Shown here piece after piece: positions 353-31,890 of a DNA stretch of 64,000 bases (position 1 is the first letter of the stretch; each line of letters opens with the position of its first letter). The position numbers and the translations under genes were made by a program. Source of the DNA: a virus (lineage: Duplodnaviria; Caudoviricetes); IMG/VR virus record IMGVR_UViG_3300013121_000029, positions 32,001 through 96,000 of that record; one strand, 5' to 3'. The notes beneath the pieces were generated by a model. The model did no database searches. It saw only the letters and a program-made list of their open reading frames with translations, and was not told the origin of the DNA.

Positions 353-909
353 TAATTATGTGGAATAATTTCGAACAGATTGGATACTCTTGATACATCA
401 GTGATATTTTGATTCCACGGCCTATTGATTAAGAATACTTCCTTAACATTCAACAATCCATATGCTTGTTCAGCATGAGCATGATTGTCTTCCACATATA
501 CTTCTACACGCGGAAATGTTTTAAGATAGTCACGTTTTGCAGCATGAAGAGGTACACATATAACTTCATCAATTGCTAATGAATTATCAACACACCATTG
601 TTGGGTAAGAGAAAGTCCTGAAGGATGGTATCCTCGAGCTGTGAGAATAACAGTTTTGCATCCTTGATCTTTATAATATTGTACTAATTCTTTAGCTCCA
701 GGTTCGACAGTTAATTTTTCCAAGATTTCACGTTCAACTATCATTTCACTAATATGATTAAAATCAAAATTGTAAATCTTACCAATTTCATATTGATTCC
801 ATTCTGTCCAAGAAACATGTTTATTTAAATGCTCACTTACGAGAACTTCTAATGGTTCTCGTAAGTTTGCCAGTACATCATCACAATCAAAAACAGCAAC
901 TTTATTCAT
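352..909 (-). CDS. HAD-superfamily 5'(3')-nucleotidase/phosphatase
   Basis: FDCDDVL motif I, ILTAR motif II, YVEDN motif IV; likely start MNKVAV at 909 overlapping the ligase stop. Confidence 0.75.
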   Translation of the reverse strand: MNKVAVFDCDDVLANLREPLEVLVSEHLNKHVSWTEWNQYEIGKIYNFDFNHISEMIVEREILEKLTVEPGAKELVQYYKDQGCKTVILTARGYHPSGLSLTQQWCVDNSLAIDEVICVPLHAAKRDYLKTFPRVEVYVEDNHAHAEQAYGLLNVKEVFLINRPWNQNITDVSRVSNLFEIIPHN

Positions 910-2056
910 CGGTATTGATAACATTGTCAGTAAATCCATATTTTTTATAGTTCTTTTTCAAGAATTCTTTATATTCTACTCCTTTACCTAGATATTTGCT
1001 CATAGCCAATCCGAACGTACCATCTTTAAATGTTTCTTGTCCAAGAATAGCATATGACTTTCTATCTAACTCTTTATTAGCAGAGTAGAATGTTTCAATA
1101 CTTGAAACTAAATGATTATAAATGTGATCCGCTTTGATTTGGATTTCATTTATTCTCGTTATAGCAGCTAAATCATCATAAAACAATGCACGAACATCAT
1201 CAATTGCTTCATCAAGAACAGCTTCAAACAATCTACGTGTAGAATTAATTGAGTCTTTTGCACGATGACGTACAAGATACCAATTCGTCTTTAACTTCAT
1301 GAATTGTTTATTAACTCTAAGCACATATCCTTCAATATTTTCTTGTTTGTCCATTGATTCGACGAACTGTTCAACAGAATTGTATTGTGATACAATATCA
1401 TTTACTGGAATTGTTTTAATCCAATATCTAAACAGAATATTATTAATATCAGCACGGACCACGTCACGTAAATTATTTAAAGTAACGTATTCCCCTGTGT
1501 CGTTATGACGAATACCAAGAACAATCAATTTGGCTTTATCATATGGCAATACGATTCTATTTGTTGGAGAAACATATTCCATATTAACAGTAAAATTACG
1601 ATCGACCATATATGATAAAGCATATAATAATTCATCATTATTATCAAGAAGTTGTTGAGCAGCTTGGGCTTGTTCAGAAAACAATGATGCTTTTGTCTTT
1701 AATTTAACAGTATCTTTATGAGAATATGTTGAGATTAAAGATCCGTCCGCTTTATCCATAATGTCTGTTGTTTGAGTAAAATCAACAGTCATAGTGAAAG
1801 GATTTTCACGGTAATTAAAGAACTTTTCAGGGGTTCTCGCTACTAAACGAATTGGTTGTCCGTCCTTCAGTTCAAACATAATGCCACGTGCTTCTAACGC
1901 ATTTTTAGCACAGAAATCAGTGTATGAGGCAAGACGATAATTAAAAATACGATATTCAATATCGTCCATTTTTTGATCAACAATATAAAATGCTTCGTTA
2001 GCTTGTGTTAAAGCTAACAAATCATTATAAATGTCTAATTGGTTTATTGTTAACAT
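902..2056 (-). CDS. rnlA: T4 Rnl1-family RNA ligase
   Basis: IFNYRLASY, EARGIMF, PEKFFN, motif I KADGSLI, EGYV, KLKTNWY. Confidence 0.9.
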   Translation of the reverse strand: MLTINQLDIYNDLLALTQANEAFYIVDQKMDDIEYRIFNYRLASYTDFCAKNALEARGIMFELKDGQPIRLVARTPEKFFNYRENPFTMTVDFTQTTDIMDKADGSLISTYSHKDTVKLKTKASLFSEQAQAAQQLLDNNDELLYALSYMVDRNFTVNMEYVSPTNRIVLPYDKAKLIVLGIRHNDTGEYVTLNNLRDVVRADINNILFRYWIKTIPVNDIVSQYNSVEQFVESMDKQENIEGYVLRVNKQFMKLKTNWYLVRHRAKDSINSTRRLFEAVLDEAIDDVRALFYDDLAAITRINEIQIKADHIYNHLVSSIETFYSANKELDRKSYAILGQETFKDGTFGLAMSKYLGKGVEYKEFLKKNYKKYGFTDNVINTDE

Positions 2057-28819: not shown

Positions 28820-28847
28820 AGTAGAACCTCGAGGTTCTACTATTTAT
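28819..28847 (-). promoter_or_regulatory. Late promoter plus perfect 24-bp palindrome masking the RBS
   Basis: TAGTAGAACCTCGAGGTTCTACTA at 28819-28842. Confidence 0.7.
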
Positions 28848-29890
28848 TCCTCATCAGAATCGTTTTGATTAAATCCTTGACGAATACCTTTAAGGCCCTT
28901 GTAAGGTACAGATAAAGTCTTCACCACACTTGTCTTATTTCTCATTGCTGGAATAAAATCAAATGCTCTTTCAGAGAAACCTGCTAATTGATACCAACCA
29001 TCAATTTCGCTTACAGGAGTGGAAGCATATGCATTCAAGTTAAATGCTACTTTAACAACATTTGATCCGAAAATCTTTGTTGCTTCACGTTTTGAACTTA
29101 ACTGATTCACCTGCATATCACTAAACAGGATCACAGTATCAGGTTCAAATCCTAATGCTGGTTTAAGATCTAAAGCAGCCTGTAAGTTTGTTCCACCACC
29201 ATATGAACGTGCTTCAATGGCTTCTACGTTAGCAAACATATTTGCCTTTGGATCGACGTTGATGTGTTCAGCACTGTTACTGAAAATCGTAACTTTCACA
29301 TTAGTTGCGTTTTTATTTGCACCAACTAATGCTGCAGAGAAAAGCGCTCCAGTTTGAAGTGGAGTACCTTCCATACTTCCTGATACATCAAGAATAATCC
29401 AAATATTGTTACCAATAGAAGGAATGTTAGTTAAACTTGTGTTACATGCATCACGAACAGCAGCACGTAATCTATCTTTATTAACATTCTTACCTTGTGC
29501 TCCATCGATTGCTGTTAAAGCATTAACGAAACGGAAAGGAAGTTGTTTTGACTTTTTAATTTGGTCTTCATCAACTAACTTACCCATTACCTGCTTGATA
29601 ACAGTATCAGGTACGTTTGCTTCAATGATGTTTCGGAGATTGCGAAGAAGTGCCATATATTGTACACTGTTAGATTCGATCAAATCAGTCCAAACTTCAG
29701 CATTTGTTTTGCGCTCGTTTGCTGGTAATTGACCATTAGCACTCAACACAGTTTCCCATGTTTTTGGGGTTGCTAATTCGTCTTTTATCAATTTAGCAAA
29801 GATTTCACCTTGTTCTGGTGTTTTACCTACAGGGTGAACAATGCGTAATACGTCACGAAGTTTAACTTGTTTTTTGCTGTGCTTTGCCAT
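28844..29890 (-). CDS. rsr: Ro60/Rsr (TROVE-vWA) protein, C-terminal piece
   Basis: Starts MAKHSKKQVKLRDVLRIVHP after AGGAGA; TWET, YMALLRNLRNI, QLPFRF, DVSGSM, GGGT, FSDMQ. Confidence 0.85.
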   Translation of the reverse strand: MAKHSKKQVKLRDVLRIVHPVGKTPEQGEIFAKLIKDELATPKTWETVLSANGQLPANERKTNAEVWTDLIESNSVQYMALLRNLRNIIEANVPDTVIKQVMGKLVDEDQIKKSKQLPFRFVNALTAIDGAQGKNVNKDRLRAAVRDACNTSLTNIPSIGNNIWIILDVSGSMEGTPLQTGALFSAALVGANKNATNVKVTIFSNSAEHINVDPKANMFANVEAIEARSYGGGTNLQAALDLKPALGFEPDTVILFSDMQVNQLSSKREATKIFGSNVVKVAFNLNAYASTPVSEIDGWYQLAGFSERAFDFIPAMRNKTSVVKTLSVPYKGLKGIRQGFNQNDSDEE

Positions 29891-30476
29891 TTTCTTTCTC
29901 CTGTTTGTGTAGTAATTTATGACATTGTTTACATAATGTAAGTCCATTGTCAATATTAAATCTTTCATCCATATTTGTAGAGAACGGTTTAATGTGGTGA
30001 GCTTCTAGTTCACAATGTGTGATTCCGCACATCCTACAATAATATTGATCGCGTTGGAAAACTAATGTTCTCCAGGTTTTATATTGGTCTGATTGTCTAA
30101 GTAAAATGTTTTCATTACTTAATCCACCTTTCCAATTCCAATGAAGTTCTTTACTCTTTCCTGTATTTTTTAATCGATCATCCGTTCGTTTAGTTAATCC
30201 TTTATTCCAACTTGATTTGCCTTTTCGTGAAATAGAAAGCTTTTGCTTAGTTTCTTCTGAAACAGTTTTTCCTACCCATTTATGCCTATGAAGTCGGGCC
30301 CATGTATTTGCTCTTCCTTTTAAGGAATCTGATACTGTTCGTCTCGGAATTCCATATCGCTTCATCCAATTTAACACTGTTGCTCCTGAGCAATTAAATT
30401 TATCTGCAATTTGTTGTAGTGATAATTTTTGGTTGATGTATAACTCAATTAATAATTCTTGTTCGATTTTTTTCAT
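29862..30476 (-). mobile_element. Free-standing HNH homing endonuclease (HTH + NUMOD3 + HNH) splitting the TROVE gene
   Basis: GKTVSEETKQKLS, WNWKGG, CRMCG..EAHHIK..NGLTLCKQCH. Confidence 0.85.
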
Positions 30477-30478
30477 TT

Positions 30479-30507
30479 TAAATACTTCTAATATTAGAAG
30501 TATTTAT
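30479..30507 (-). promoter_or_regulatory. Late promoter overlapping the TROVE-N stop plus perfect 28-bp palindrome upstream of the HNH start
   Basis: TAAATACTTCTAATATTAGAAGTATTTA at 30479-30506. Confidence 0.7.
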
Positions 30508-31121
30508 TAATTCCATTTAGCAAGAGAGTACTCATTGAATTTTTCGAAAGCATCTGCAACCCCACGACGAATTGCCATAGGTACAGCATTCTTTCCACCA
30601 AAAACAGATAATGCATATGCATATAAATCAGTGATTTGGTCAGCACGTTGAATTACGTCGCAAACAACACGACGCATATCATTATAGGTAAACTGTTCAG
30701 CTTTTGATTGAAAAGTTGCTATTTTAATATTTTCAGCATCGGTTAACTCACGACCATTTGCACTTTGTTTAATAGTAGTAATTTGATCAAGGAACAATTT
30801 ACGATTATCAGAAAGGGCCTTTGCAAATTCAACACAAAGAATGATAGGCATGGTACGAATGTTCATATTCGTACGTGCGTGAACGATTAAATTTGCTAAG
30901 AAGTCGAAATTTTTATTGGCAACAACAGAAGACAAAAGTTCACGCAAACGACGTAAACGATCGTTTGAACTTTCATAGAATTCATCTTTACCGTACAAAG
31001 TCATTGTAACAACTTCGTACAATTGTTGTTCAGCATTTTTAAGGAATTGTGGATTACCGTTGTAAGAATAAGCAACCTTATTCTGTTTTGCGGATTTGTT
31101 TGGCTTATTTAATTTAGACAT
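30507..31121 (-). CDS. rsr: Ro60/Rsr (TROVE) protein, N-terminal piece
   Basis: DEFYES, ARTNMNIRTMP, VIQRADQI, RGVADAFEKFNEYSLAKW; GAGGAG RBS. Confidence 0.85.
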   Translation of the reverse strand: MSKLNKPNKSAKQNKVAYSYNGNPQFLKNAEQQLYEVVTMTLYGKDEFYESSNDRLRRLRELLSSVVANKNFDFLANLIVHARTNMNIRTMPIILCVEFAKALSDNRKLFLDQITTIKQSANGRELTDAENIKIATFQSKAEQFTYNDMRRVVCDVIQRADQITDLYAYALSVFGGKNAVPMAIRRGVADAFEKFNEYSLAKWN

Positions 31122-31151: not shown

Positions 31152-31180
31152 ATTATACTGTGTTAATTTTAGAAAGTCAA
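31152..31180 (-). promoter_or_regulatory. Sigma70 promoter for the TROVE gene
   Basis: TTGACT-17-TATAAT. Confidence 0.75.
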
Positions 31181-31206: not shown

Positions 31207-31343
31207 TTTTAAAGAGACAAGGGCTAAAAGAGAGATTTTCGTGCTCTACCAACTGAGCTATATCTCCAGATGGAGATAGCAGGACTCGAACCTACGGCCA
31301 CGTCATTAACAGTGAAGTAACTCTTTTATACGCAACTTTAAAA
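31207..31343 (-). ncRNA. YrlA-like Y RNA with permuted tRNA domain (unit 1)
   Basis: Closing stems UUUUAAAG/CUUUAAAA and UAAAAGAG/CUCUUUUA; T arm GUAGG-UUCGAGU-CCUGC; closed acceptor stem; D arm GCUC-AGUUGGUA-GAGC; adjacent to Ro60. Confidence 0.85.
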
Positions 31344-31350
31344 AACTTTA

Positions 31351-31415
31351 TGATGAGTCAAAGTTAGAAAGAGTGTGTTTCACCAAAAGAAGTAACTCTT
31401 TCCTACGCAACATCA
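31351..31415 (-). ncRNA. Minimal Y-RNA-like module (unit 2)
   Basis: UGAUG-UUGCGUAG-GAAAGAG-UUACUUC...CUCUUUC..UUUGACU-CAUCA. Confidence 0.75.
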
Positions 31416-31434
31416 AAAACTTTTACAAAAATTC

Positions 31435-31520
31435 AGGTGAGTTAAAGTCGTACAGAGGATATTGGCCCGAGGCCAGTCTTTGTTAAGGAAAAGAAGTATC
31501 TCTGTTACTACGCAACACCT
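31435..31520 (-). ncRNA. Y-RNA-like module (unit 3)
   Basis: AGGUG-UUGCGUAG-UAACAGAG-AUACUUC...CUCUGU..UUUAACU-CACCU; internal UGGCC/GGCCA hairpin. Confidence 0.75.
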
Positions 31521-31538
31521 AAAAACCTATTTATGATA

Positions 31539-31840
31539 CGAAATTTCAGTCGAGTTCAATTTTGAATTGAGCAGTCACCGGACAGGAGGTTATTAGTCCT
31601 GTTATACGGCCAACATTTACTCTCAAATGTTTTAAGATGAGTGTTTCTGACACCAGCCAACTTAACGTAATTGATACGAATGTTTTAAAGATCTTTTCAA
31701 TTAATAGTTAATTTCATTTGTGATATTTCTAAACATTAACTCTATATCACACAATAAAACTATTTGGTCTTACCTATTAATCGTCCGATCCAGCCGTTTT
31801 AATATGAAGTATCTCACTTCAACGCAACGACTTCATTTCG
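31539..31840 (-). ncRNA. Long Y-RNA-like module with large structured insert (unit 4)
   Basis: AGUCG-UUGCG-UUGAAGUGAG-AUACUUC...CUCAAUUCAA..UGAACU-CGACU; several internal hairpins. Confidence 0.7.
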
Positions 31841-31861: not shown

Positions 31862-31890
31862 ATTATATATGAGAGTTTATTAAAATTCAA
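31862..31890 (-). promoter_or_regulatory. Sigma70 promoter driving the Y-RNA array
   Basis: TTGAAT-17-TATAAT just upstream of unit 4. Confidence 0.7.

What the first reader, a model, noticed from the sequence alone, without database searches (positions are those of the whole stretch)
31240..31315. Unit 1 contains a complete circularly permuted tRNA with an intact GUU (Asn) anticodon loop
Seen: the minus strand reads tRNA nt 29-73 first (UCA-CUGUUAA-UGACG-UGGCC-GUAGG-UUCGAGU-CCUGC-UAUCUCC-A), then a 3-nt UCU linker, then nt 1-28 (GGAGAUA-UA-GCUC-AGUUGGUA-GAGC-A-CG). Rejoining CG|UCA gives a canonical 73-nt cloverleaf with anticodon stem CGUCA/UGACG; the Y scaffold is grafted between positions 28 and 29. 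Known: YrlA RNAs are described mainly as mimicking the D, T and acceptor arms, and colicin E5-type anticodon nucleases cut GUN/QUN tRNAs including Asn. Inference: either an unchargeable decoy or sensor for host anticodon nucleases held on Ro60, or a permuted pre-tRNA that the phage ligases could circularise and mature. A73 rather than the usual Asn G73, and the very short linker, favour the decoy reading.
Basis: partly seen in the sequence, partly recalled or inferred. Interest (0 to 1): 0.85.

Follow-up and report, generated by a model that had tools for sequence, protein, structure and literature searches.

The report
Phage Y RNA keeping anticodon arm
Just upstream of a phage's Ro60 gene lies a small partner RNA (a YrlA-type Y RNA) whose body is a complete tRNA-Asn written in rotated order, anticodon loop included; this "anticodon arm" proves common in such RNAs, where papers draw it as a "variable arm", and what reads it is unknown.

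Summary
Observation confirmed. On the minus strand, 31315-31271 (tRNA nt 29-73), a UCU linker and 31267-31240 (nt 1-28) rejoin into a 73-mer that ARAGORN calls tRNA-Asn(GUU). The native order gives no tRNA call.

The RNA is unit 1 of four Y-RNA units. It sits 86 nt upstream of a Ro60/TROVE gene that is split in two, and it is a YrlA-class Y RNA.

The split anticodon arm is not special to this phage. In 107 phage and 122 bacterial YrlA-like sequences, pairs 27-43 and 28-42 form in 95% of the phage set. A 3-bp hairpin with a 7-nt loop (U33 95%, R37 99%, A38 94%) completes a 5-bp stem in 62-72%. Positions 34-35 change fastest. Chen et al. 2014 drew this hairpin as the "V" (variable) arm, and the crystallised Salmonella YrlA lacks it.

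Family-wide, closed and variable acceptor hairpins and random N73 argue against a chargeable or matured tRNA. Unit 1 keeps a 7-bp acceptor stem, so RNase P cleavage stays open.

Best reading: a Ro60-docked whole-tRNA mimic showing an Asn-type anticodon loop to an unknown reader. The anticodon-nuclease decoy idea is plausible, already floated in print, and untested.

Other agents of this scan reached the same family-wide reading on other DNA.

The parts
31336..31343 (-). Unit 1, terminal stem 1, 5' strand (UUUUAAAG); pairs with 31207-31214
   Evidence: segmentation and pairing
31329..31335 (-). UUGCGUA, 5' side of the internal loop. It is the shared Y-scaffold motif of all four units and corresponds to the published Ro60-binding GNCGAA-type motif.
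   Evidence: G[CU]GNA-type motif found in 57/107 phage and 92/122 bacterial homologues; Chen 2014
31321..31328 (-). Stem 2, 5' strand (UAAAAGAG); pairs with 31225-31232
31316..31320 (-). UUACU junction strand, the conserved YUAY motif of YrlA, leading from the Ro module into nt 29
   Evidence: (G)UUACUU is the commonest sequence at this place in homologues; Chen 2014 and Wang 2018
31303..31315 (-). Distal anticodon arm: 3-bp hairpin UCA/UGA (nt 29-31/39-41) with the 7-nt loop CUGUUAA (31306-31312; C32 U33 G34 U35 U36 A37 A38)
   Evidence: conserved in homologues
31301..31302 (-). nt 42-43 (CG), pairing with nt 27-28 at 31240-31241 to complete the 5-bp anticodon stem
   Evidence: pairs 27-43 and 28-42 each form in 102/107 homologues with four or more pair types
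31296..31300 (-). 5-nt variable loop UGGCC (family consensus NGGUC); C48 can pair with G15
31279..31295 (-). T arm GUAGG-UUCGAGU-CCUGC
31261..31278 (-). Acceptor stem, 7 bp (UAUCUCC/GGAGAUA), closed by the 4-nt loop A73-UCU (31268-31271)
31240..31260 (-). U8 A9, D arm GCUC-AGUUGGUA-GAGC, A26, C27 G28
31207..31239 (-). Return strand of the Ro module: junction AAAAU-CU, stem 2 3' strand (31225-31232), GCCCUUGUCU (31215-31224; compare the ...UUGUUCUC tails of other YrlAs) and stem 1 3' strand (31207-31214)
   Evidence: tails of homologues
31351..31840 (-). Units 2-4 of the same Y-RNA array. GUUGCG-...UACUUC scaffolds start at 31411, 31516 and 31828. None has a tRNA body.
   Evidence: unit limits taken from scan note e1-5749932
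31862..31890 (-). Promoter-like site (TTGAAT-17-TATAAT) upstream of unit 4; possible start of a four-unit precursor
31152..31180 (-). Promoter-like site (TTGACT-17-TATAAT) between unit 1 and the Ro60 start codon
28844..31121 (-). Ro60/TROVE+VWA gene in two ORFs (N piece 30507-31121, C piece 28844-29968), separated by an HNH/NUMOD3 endonuclease ORF (29862-30476). This is the presumed protein partner.
   Evidence: Pfam; the N and C pieces align to adjoining halves of intact TROVE genes

Best explanation
Window 31207-31343 (minus strand) encodes the Ro60-proximal member of a four-gene Y-RNA array. It is a YrlA-class Y RNA.

Two terminal helices around the UUGCGUA/...CUUGUCU internal loop form the Ro60-docking module. 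This assignment is inferred from family motifs and from the position next to Ro60.

The rest of the RNA is a whole class-I tRNA body in rotated order, and its sequence reads as tRNA-Asn(GUU). The acceptor stem is closed by a 4-nt loop. The Ro module enters through a break in the 5' strand of the anticodon stem, between nt 28 and 29. This makes a three-way junction in which 27-28/42-43 (2 bp) and the hairpin 29-31/39-41 (3 bp) can stack into a normal 5-bp anticodon stem along the unbroken 39-43 strand. The stem is capped by a canonical 7-nt loop. These sequence features are shown here.

The split anticodon arm is a selected, family-wide feature of YrlA RNAs. It keeps the loop frame (Y32, U33, R37, A38, mostly U36-A37 or G36-G37) while nt 34-35 change quickly. 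The published 'V/variable arm' is this element. Both statements are shown comparatively.

The RNA is not a decoding tRNA. It most likely works as a Ro60-bound tRNA mimic that offers both the tRNA elbow and an anticodon loop to a tRNA-recognising protein. In this phage the loop is Asn-type and close to the phage's own tRNA-Asn arm. The RNA would thereby tether, bait or compete for that protein. This functional part is inferred and the partner is unknown.
For: The re-permuted 73-mer is called tRNA-Asn(gtt), while the native order gives no tRNA call.

There is a partial Rfam YrlA hit over the T, acceptor and D arms plus the first anticodon-stem pairs (37.2 bits, E 2e-6). The RNA lies on the same strand as a TROVE+VWA gene and 86 nt upstream of it.

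Homologues: 107 phage YrlA-like RNAs were examined.
- N26 is a purine in 106/107.
- Pairs 27-43 and 28-42 each form in 102/107, with four or more pair types.
- All five pairs form with a 7-nt loop and a 5-nt variable loop in 64/107. The shuffle mean is 0.8 and the maximum 4; other registers give 10 or fewer, apart from one alias of the same hairpin.
- 77/107 form a full split stem, and all 77 are called tRNAs once re-permuted.
- Loop signature: U33 73/77, R37 76/77, A38 72/77. Real tRNAs from the same loci give 96%, 98% and 70%.

Bacterial YrlAs behave the same way: 76/122 form the stem and U33 is present in 68/76.

A TROVE gene lies on the same strand in 77/77 cases where a hit was found, at a median of 377 nt downstream.

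Positions 34 and 35 change most. Entropy is 1.41 and 1.44 bits among 20 near-identical Streptomyces-type YrlAs. On a tree they need 65 and 70 changes, against 10 at position 33.

Unit 1 specifically:
- Its body, with the loop deleted, best matches tRNA-Asn.
- The best full-length match is a real tRNA-Asn at 86.5% identity.
- Its arm CGUCA/UGACG differs by one flipped pair from the phage's own tRNA-Asn arm CGUGA/UCACG, a stem type found in 1 of 76 other tRNA-Asn genes.

Published work shows that YrlA folds like tRNA, carries tRNA modifications and binds Rsr.
Against: - Nearest-neighbour folding does not predict the split stem. The proposed fold scores -25.9 kcal/mol against an MFE of -35.5. The pairing probability of 27-28/42-43 is about 0.001 and that of the hairpin about 0.45.
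- The Rfam score is below the gathering threshold (37 against 69 bits).
- There are no transcript, Ro60-binding or modification data for this uncultured phage, and no close relative was found to test whether GUU is conserved.
- About 30-40% of homologues lack the arm, including the crystallised Salmonella YrlA, so it is not needed for core YrlA function.
- The triplet is not matched to the tRNA body family-wide (10/77 against a null of 6.9, P 0.14), nor to the tRNAs encoded nearby (8/23 against a null of 8.8). Fast change at 34-35 could therefore be relaxed constraint rather than specificity.
- The 36-37 coupling is not significant once relatedness is allowed for (3 of 4 independent pairs, p 0.25).
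- The Ro60 gene is split, so an intact partner protein is assumed rather than shown.
Confidence: 0.6

Rival explanations
1. Anticodon-nuclease decoy or sensor. The Ro60-held Asn-type anticodon arm is bound or cut by a host anticodon nuclease. Candidates are a colicin E5-like enzyme acting on GUN/QUN loops, or PrrC, RloC or PARIS-type enzymes. The arm would either soak up the enzyme or report its activity, and nt 34-35 would evolve to track the local nuclease.
For: The loop is a canonical Asn loop with U33-G34-U35. The loop frame is conserved while positions 34-35 change fast, which fits an arms race. The phage invests in tRNA defence and repair: about 20 tRNAs, and a T4 Rnl1-type ligase with the tRNA-binding C domain. 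Hughes et al. 2020 proposed YrlA as a competitive inhibitor of an anticodon nuclease. A phage Ro60 homologue counters a defence system in PhageMaP. Phage tRNAs are proposed to evade anticodon nucleases.
Against: No nuclease, host or experiment is linked to this RNA. The YrlA triplet is not associated with the tRNAs the same phage carries. The same arm is common in free-living bacteria, where a phage counter-defence role does not apply directly. In Salmonella, YrlA was not cut by the SOS-induced nuclease, though that YrlA lacks the loop. No polynucleotide kinase or RtcB was found in the held 72% of the genome.
Confidence: 0.22
2. RNase P-processed two-piece tRNA mimic, as in Mycobacterium smegmatis YrlA. 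RNase P would cut between U31268 and G31267, the UCU tail would be trimmed and CCA added. The result would be a split tRNA-Asn-like RNA with a free CCA end that might even be aminoacylated.
For: Unit 1 has exactly 7 acceptor pairs, G+1, U-1 and a 4-nt closing loop. M. smegmatis YrlA, which also has a 7-bp stem, is cut by RNase P and CCA-tailed in vivo. Seven contiguous acceptor pairs occur in 78/105 phage and 91/110 bacterial homologues.
Against: N73 is random in homologues (A23 C22 U18 G14). Linkers run from 0 to 12 nt and the hairpins often extend beyond 7 bp. CCA follows N73 in only 4/105, and G+1 occurs in only 33/105 phage RNAs. Unit 1 has A73, whereas the phage's own tRNA-Asn has G73. 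G73 is an AsnRS identity element (own knowledge).
Confidence: 0.15
3. Structural relic. The hairpin is only a spacer or 'variable arm' that stabilises the junction. Its anticodon-loop look would be inherited from the tRNA ancestor of YrlA, and nothing reads it.
For: The arm is absent from 30-40% of YrlAs, including the crystallised one. The triplet varies freely and is not matched to the body or to neighbouring tRNAs.
Against: An unread relic should decay evenly, yet positions 32, 33, 37 and 38 and the 7-nt length are held as tightly as in real tRNAs. N36 is strongly skewed to U or G (94% against 60% in real tRNAs; chi-square P 1.5e-9, not corrected for relatedness). A canonical 5-nt variable loop already lies next to it, so it cannot be the variable arm.
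Confidence: 0.15
4. Permuted pre-tRNA. The Y stem would be cut away, the 28/29 ends ligated by a phage RNA ligase and the acceptor loop opened, giving a working tRNA-Asn.
For: The 3' half lies before the 5' half, as in the permuted tRNA genes of Cyanidioschyzon (own knowledge). The phage has three RNA-ligase-like genes.
Against: The flanks are a conserved Ro60-docking scaffold shared with three units that have no tRNA body. The layout is family-wide, next to Ro60 and on its strand. Acceptor ends are not tRNA-like in homologues. The phage already encodes tRNA-Asn(GUU) with G73. No bulge-helix-bulge splice motif was noticed, though none was formally searched for.
Confidence: 0.03

Closest known systems
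YrlA (Y RNA-like A; Rfam RF02553; Chen et al. 2014, PMC4201824; structure in Wang et al. 2018, doi 10.1101/312249)
   Same: Lies upstream of Ro60 on the same strand. Has a terminal Ro-binding helix with a GNCGAA-like motif, the YUAY motif, nearly invariant T and D arms, a loop-closed acceptor stem, and a fourth stem-loop 5' of the T arm.
   Different: The published drawings call the fourth stem-loop 'V' (variable arm), and the structure paper says YrlA lacks the anticodon loop. Here, and in 62-72% of the homologues tested, that hairpin plus two pairs to the nucleotides after the D arm make a 5-bp anticodon stem with a canonical 7-nt loop, and a normal 5-nt variable loop lies next to it. The Rfam model matches only positions 24-84, at 37 bits against a threshold of 69.
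Mycobacterium smegmatis YrlA (Chen et al. 2014)
   Same: Has a 7-bp acceptor stem like unit 1. [quoted passage not shown]
   Different: [quoted passage not shown] I could not retrieve its sequence to check its loop.
Circularly permuted tRNA genes of the red alga Cyanidioschyzon merolae (Soma et al. 2007; own knowledge)
   Same: The 3' half of the tRNA is encoded before the 5' half.
   Different: Those are matured through a circular intermediate into working tRNAs. Here the termini form a conserved Ro60-docking helix and the acceptor end is closed, so no maturation is expected.
Phage tRNAs that replace or evade tRNAs cut by host anticodon nucleases (van den Berg et al. 2023, PMC10264068), and T4 Rnl1/Pnkp repair of PrrC-cut tRNA-Lys (own knowledge)
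   Same: A phage-encoded RNA presents an anticodon loop in a setting where host anticodon nucleases are a known pressure. This phage also encodes a T4 Rnl1-type ligase.
   Different: Those are functional decoding tRNAs. Unit 1 cannot decode as encoded, and any decoy role is hypothetical.
Thermus phage phiLo Ro60 with Yrl1/Yrl2 (PMC12135203)
   Same: A phage Ro60 with two or more Y-like RNAs encoded just upstream. The complex can recruit host PNPase.
   Different: No tRNA-like or anticodon-like module is described for Yrl1 or Yrl2.

Membership tests
YrlA-class Y RNA | Encoded within a few kb of a Ro60/TROVE gene, on the same strand | tested here: met
   Unit 1 ends at 31207 and the Ro60 ATG is at 31121, both on the minus strand
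YrlA-class Y RNA | T arm, loop-closed acceptor stem and D arm in that order, with near-invariant T and D sequences | tested here: met
   Rfam local alignment to model positions 24-84; segmentation
YrlA-class Y RNA | 5' Ro-binding motif (GNCGAAN0-1G) in a terminal helix, and the YUAY motif | tested here: met
   UUGCGUA sits between two 8-bp helices and UUAC precedes the hairpin. It is a near match to the published motif, not an exact one. The same G[CU]GNA type occurs in 57/107 phage and 92/122 bacterial homologues.
YrlA-class Y RNA | Reaches the Rfam RF02553 gathering score (69 bits) | tested here: not met
   37.2 bits. Six other YrlA loci from actinobacteria, a Cohnella and phages also gave no hit at the gathering score, so the model appears narrow.
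YrlA-class Y RNA | Bound by Ro60/Rsr; carries pseudouridine-55 and dihydrouridine | not testable with these tools
   Needs RNA from infected or expressing cells
Functional tRNA-Asn | Contiguous cloverleaf with free 5' and 3' acceptor ends (CCA) | tested here: not met
   No tRNA is called in the native order. The acceptor stem is closed by AUCU.
Functional tRNA-Asn | GUU anticodon in a 7-nt loop on a 5-bp stem | tested here: met
   The stem is split between nt 28 and 29.
Functional tRNA-Asn | G73 discriminator (AsnRS identity element; own knowledge) | tested here: not met
   Unit 1 has A73. The phage's own tRNA-Asn has G73.
Permuted tRNA gene (Cyanidioschyzon type) | 3' half lies upstream of the 5' half | tested here: met
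Permuted tRNA gene (Cyanidioschyzon type) | Termini form a bulge-helix-bulge splice motif and are joined into a circular intermediate | not tested
   The flanks form two 8-bp helices with a 7/10-nt internal loop shared with units 2-4. No formal search for the motif was run and there are no RNA data.

The most novel reading that the evidence does not exclude
YrlA-type Y RNAs carry a programmable anticodon arm. The conserved loop frame (U33, U36-A37-A38 or G36-G37) makes the arm a true substrate or ligand for anticodon-reading proteins such as nucleases, Tgt, or the t6A and m1G37 enzymes. Nucleotides 34-35 set the specificity. Ro60 then couples the captured protein, or the damaged RNA, to decay or repair. 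In this phage the bait would be Asn-specific and copied from the phage's own tRNA-Asn arm.
Probability: 0.2. Interest if true: 0.85.

Novelty: new member of a known kind. Interest (0 to 1): 0.5.

Why it matters
The job of the tRNA-like half of bacterial and phage Y RNAs has been open since 2014. Models have been built on a crystal structure of a YrlA that happens to lack this hairpin.

If most YrlAs display a proper anticodon loop with a conserved frame and a fast-changing triplet, the search for the partner narrows to proteins that read anticodon loops. Cheap tests follow: modification mapping at positions 34 and 37, nuclease competition, and triplet swaps. These can be done in cultured systems that carry the feature. 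Examples are Streptomyces YrlAs and the phages Gordonia Rabbitrun, Streptomyces BRock and Caulobacter CcrColossus.

It also matters for annotation. The YrlA-like RNA of CcrColossus is deposited as 'tRNA-Gln'.

Tried and rejected
- Close relatives of this phage were sought to see whether GUU is kept. I ran blastn and tblastn against INPHARED, and peptide-pattern scans of viral and metagenome contigs with both Ro60 pieces. The best Ro60 identity found anywhere was 39%.
- The Rfam gathering scan of the window found nothing. Only a sub-threshold YrlA hit appeared with relaxed filters.
- A MAFFT alignment of 107 homologues put inconsistent gaps in the loop. I did not use it for the count of structure pairs and relied on anchored, gap-free counts in scripts instead.
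- Test that each YrlA copies the whole body of the tRNA whose anticodon it shows: rejected family-wide (P 0.14), though unit 1 itself is Asn-like.
- Test that the YrlA triplet matches a tRNA encoded in the same locus: rejected (8/23 against 8.8 expected).
- The 36-37 coupling (U36-A37 in 53, G36-G37 in 19, other combinations in 5 of 77) looked striking. The relatedness-aware test had only 4 supported pairs (p 0.25), and the bacterial set is less clean. It is therefore reported only as a lead.
- Thermodynamic folding does not recover the split stem. Its alternative pairing, GUUAC with GUGGC, uses unit 1's atypical variable loop (UGGCC) and cannot form with the family-consensus NGGUC loop.
- The Wolin-lab reviews (PMC10870794, PMC6047535, PMC6542706) are not held in the library. 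I therefore cannot exclude that the anticodon reading is mentioned there.
Full report
**1. What is in the sequence**

Read on the minus strand, 31343-31207 is a 137-nt unit. Its parts run in this order:
- an 8-bp terminal helix (UUUUAAAG with CUUUAAAA);
- an internal loop with UUGCGUA on the 5' side and GCCCUUGUCU on the 3' side;
- a second 8-bp helix (UAAAAGAG with CUCUUUUA);
- the junction strand UUACU;
- AAAAU-CU, leading back into the helices.

The coordinates given in the finding are exact. Nucleotides 29-73 are 31315-31271, the linker is 31270-31268, and nt 1-28 are 31267-31240.

ARAGORN finds no tRNA in the native window. It calls the rejoined 73-mer tRNA-Asn(gtt), with a 7-bp acceptor stem, a 4-bp D stem, a 5-bp anticodon stem and a 5-bp T stem.

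**2. What it belongs to**

The Rfam search with relaxed filters gives a local YrlA (RF02553) match. It covers the T arm, acceptor hairpin, D arm and the three innermost anticodon-stem pairs (37.2 bits, E 2e-6, model positions 24-84 of 114). This is below the family's 69-bit threshold.

Eighty-six nucleotides downstream, behind a near-consensus promoter-like site, starts a Ro60/TROVE+VWA gene. It is in two ORFs separated by an HNH/NUMOD3 endonuclease ORF. The two pieces align to adjoining halves of intact TROVE genes elsewhere.

Three more units with the same GUUGCG...UACUUC scaffold, but no tRNA body, lie upstream. Unit 1 is the only permuted tRNA body in the 197.6-kb record.

The record is an IMG/VR contig estimated to be 72% complete. 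It also encodes:
- about 20 tRNAs, including its own tRNA-Asn(GUU) and a CUA suppressor;
- a permuted tmRNA;
- a T4 Rnl1-type RNA ligase with the tRNA-binding C-terminal domain;
- two PF09414 ligase-like genes.

No RtcB or AAA_33 kinase was found.

**3. Is the anticodon arm real or chance?**

I collected YrlA-like RNAs with three DNA patterns that leave the region 5' of the variable loop free. Two scans were of viral contigs and one was of one-genome-per-species bacterial contigs.

I kept sequences whose acceptor stem is closed and removed ordinary tRNAs. That left 107 unique phage sequences (including this one) and 122 bacterial sequences.

These are true Ro60 loci. Even with this distant Ro60 as query, tblastn finds a TROVE gene in 73/101 phage and 81/104 bacterial loci. 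The gene is on the same strand in 77/77 cases, at a median of 377 nt downstream.

The T stem and D stem fix the register, so I counted pairs without any alignment. Results for the phage set:
- N26 is a purine in 106/107.
- The two nucleotides after N26 pair with the two nucleotides before a 5-nt variable loop in 102/107 sequences each, using four or more pair types. The variable-loop consensus is NGGUC.
- A 3-bp hairpin with a 7-nt loop completes a 5-bp stem in 64/107.
- Shuffling the upstream 25 nt gives a mean of 0.8 and a maximum of 4. Other loop lengths and registers give at most 10, apart from one alias of the same hairpin.
- Allowing the break to fall elsewhere in the 5' strand, 77/107 form the full stem. 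All 77 are called tRNAs by ARAGORN after re-permutation.

The bacterial set gives 63/122 and 76/122 for the same two counts.

**4. The loop is an anticodon loop by every sequence criterion**

In the 77 phage loops, position 32 is a pyrimidine in 62, position 33 is U in 73, position 37 is a purine in 76 and position 38 is A in 72. Real tRNAs from the same loci (n=1274) give 98%, 96%, 98% and 70%.

The triplet varies widely: GUU 15-16, UGU 11-12, GCU 7, UUU 6, UGG 5, and about 20 other triplets (the script tally and the ARAGORN calls differ by one).

Among 20 Streptomyces/Kitasatospora YrlAs with almost identical flanks, positions 34 and 35 have the highest entropy of the 5' half (1.41 and 1.44 bits). 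Positions 29, 31-33 and 38-43 do not vary at all.

On a tree built from the non-loop columns of 153 sequences, the fewest changes needed are 65 and 70 at positions 34 and 35. The other positions need 10 (33), 15 (38), 32 (32 and 37) and 37 (36). That tree is poorly supported.

Position 36 is skewed to U (70%) or G (25%), against 37% and 22% in real tRNAs. U36 goes with A37 (53/54) and G36 with G37 (19/19) in the phage set. These are the sequence contexts of t6A37 and m1G37 (own knowledge).

This coupling is only a lead. The bacterial set is less clean. The relatedness-aware test found four supported pairs, three concordant, with p 0.25.

**5. Relation to what is published**

Chen et al. [quoted passage not shown] It begins after a conserved YUAY, and they oriented it as the tRNA variable arm.

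Wang et al. 2018 solved the Salmonella YrlA, which has no such hairpin. They state that YrlA lacks the anticodon loop. In that structure the YUAY nucleotides form a kink in the "anticodon stem", which is exactly where the hairpin leaves the helix in unit 1.

My counts argue that the hairpin is not a variable arm:
- a canonical 5-nt variable loop already lies between it and the T stem;
- its 3' strand runs on without a break into two covarying pairs with nt 27-28;
- the loop has the anticodon-loop frame.

I found no paper in the searchable library that says this. Three Wolin-lab reviews are not held.

Several follow-up agents of this scan reached the same family-wide reading on other genomes. 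I saw their notes only after my own counts. They are not independent evidence.

**6. What is particular to unit 1**

Family-wide, the displayed triplet does not predict which tRNA the rest of the body resembles (10/77 top-hit matches against 6.9 expected, P 0.14). It also does not predict which tRNAs are encoded nearby (8/23 against 8.8).

Unit 1 is an exception:
- Its full sequence is 86.5% identical to a real phage tRNA-Asn; the next best tRNA is at 80%.
- With the loop deleted, its best hit and three of its top five hits are tRNA-Asn.
- Its anticodon arm A-CGUCA-CUGUUAA-UGACG-UG differs from the phage's own tRNA-Asn arm G-CGUGA-CUGUUAA-UCACG-UG only by N26 and one flipped pair. That stem type occurs in just 1 of 76 other tRNA-Asn genes.
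- In unit 1 the split arrangement is the only way to get five pairs. In about a third of homologues the conserved UUC can instead extend the hairpin.

**7. Function**

Shown:
- the architecture;
- its conservation;
- its position next to Ro60.

Established for the family by others:
- the tRNA-like fold;
- pseudouridine and dihydrouridine modifications;
- Rsr binding;

Inferred here: unit 1 is a Ro60-docked whole-tRNA mimic whose anticodon arm is a recognition surface.

A decoding or chargeable role is unlikely for the family. N73 is random, linkers run from 0 to 12 nt, hairpins often exceed 7 bp, and CCA follows N73 in only 4/105. Unit 1 has A73, where the phage's own tRNA-Asn has G73.

Unit 1 does keep a 7-bp acceptor stem with G+1 and U-1, so M. 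smegmatis-type RNase P processing cannot be excluded.

The decoy idea has a published precedent: YrlA as a competitive inhibitor of an anticodon nuclease (Hughes et al. 2020). It fits the phage's tRNA-repair ligase and the fast-changing triplet. Nothing here ties the RNA to a nuclease, and the same arm is common in free-living bacteria.

The ligation/maturation model is the least likely.

**8. Caveats**

- Nearest-neighbour folding prefers another fold (-35.5 against -25.9 kcal/mol) and gives the 27-28/42-43 pairs a probability of about 0.001. That alternative pairing depends on unit 1's atypical variable loop (UGGCC) and cannot form with the family-consensus NGGUC loop. The case for the split stem is therefore comparative, not energetic.
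- The homologue sets were fished with patterns that fix the T loop and D arm, and in two of the three scans the UACUUC motif as well. The percentages describe that sub-family.
- The counts are not corrected for relatedness, except.
- No close relative of this phage was found, so conservation of GUU itself is untested.

**9. Verdict**

The RNA is a new member of the known YrlA class. Its anticodon arm is one instance of a widespread, selected feature that published work appears to mislabel as a variable arm.

That re-reading, rather than this single locus, is the interesting part, and it leads directly to experiments.

Noticed in passing
window 28844-31121 (minus): The Ro60/TROVE+VWA gene is in two ORFs with an HNH/NUMOD3 homing-type endonuclease ORF between them. 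The N and C pieces align to adjoining halves of intact TROVE genes with a few residues of overlap, so little seems lost. No group I intron was detected by Rfam.
   Followed up: partly
window 31379-31391 (minus), unit 2: Right after its UACUUC motif, unit 2 has UUC-UUUUGGU-GAA. This is a 3-bp hairpin with a 7-nt U33-type loop (UUG, G37) but no tRNA body, so it is a stand-alone version of the same arm.
   Followed up: no
G000:C1:155430-155513 (outside the window): The phage's own tRNA-Asn(GUU) is 84 nt long, with a 13-nt variable region containing a GC-GAAA-GC mini-hairpin. That is unusual for tRNA-Asn. It has G73.
   Followed up: no
G000:C1:20014-20410 and C1:120723-120797 (outside the window): ARAGORN calls a permuted (two-piece type) tmRNA with tag DANEAFSLAA, and a tRNA with a CUA (amber-reading) anticodon.
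   Followed up: no
window 902-2056 (minus): A T4 Rnl1-type RNA ligase that includes the tRNA-binding C-terminal domain (PF09511 + PF20819). A weak HAD-type hydrolase ORF lies next to it (352-939). No polynucleotide kinase was found in the held part of the genome.
   Followed up: partly
L390:2205-2272 (Caulobacter phage CcrColossus, JX100810): The GenBank record annotates a 'tRNA-Gln' that overlaps a YrlA-like RNA with the arm CGC-AUCUGGA-GCG, upstream of the TROVE gene. It is probably a mis-called Y RNA. At least five more UACUUC scaffolds lie nearby.
   Followed up: partly
L240 (IMGVR_UViG_3300033052_000019), 2 kb: Four tandem GUUGCGUAG...GAGUUACUUC scaffolds, each enclosing a different tRNA-like module. 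Some have a T arm joined directly to a D arm. Arrays like the one in this window therefore occur in other phages.
   Followed up: no
L307:2540-2612 and 2754-2819 (Cohnella soli): A real tRNA-Asn(GUU) gene lies about 140 nt upstream of a bacterial YrlA whose arm also shows CUGUUAA.
   Followed up: no
L278, L345, L307, L036, L181, L140: Rfam RF02553 reaches its gathering score on none of these six clear YrlA loci. The family model seems too narrow (Salmonella-like, without the hairpin).
   Followed up: partly
bacterial loci (e.g. L300, L324, L326, L338): Many actinobacterial rsr loci carry two tandem YrlA-type RNAs. One has the 7-nt anticodon-like loop. The other has a shorter insert of the UACUUC-AUUGGAUC type in the same place.
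   Followed up: no
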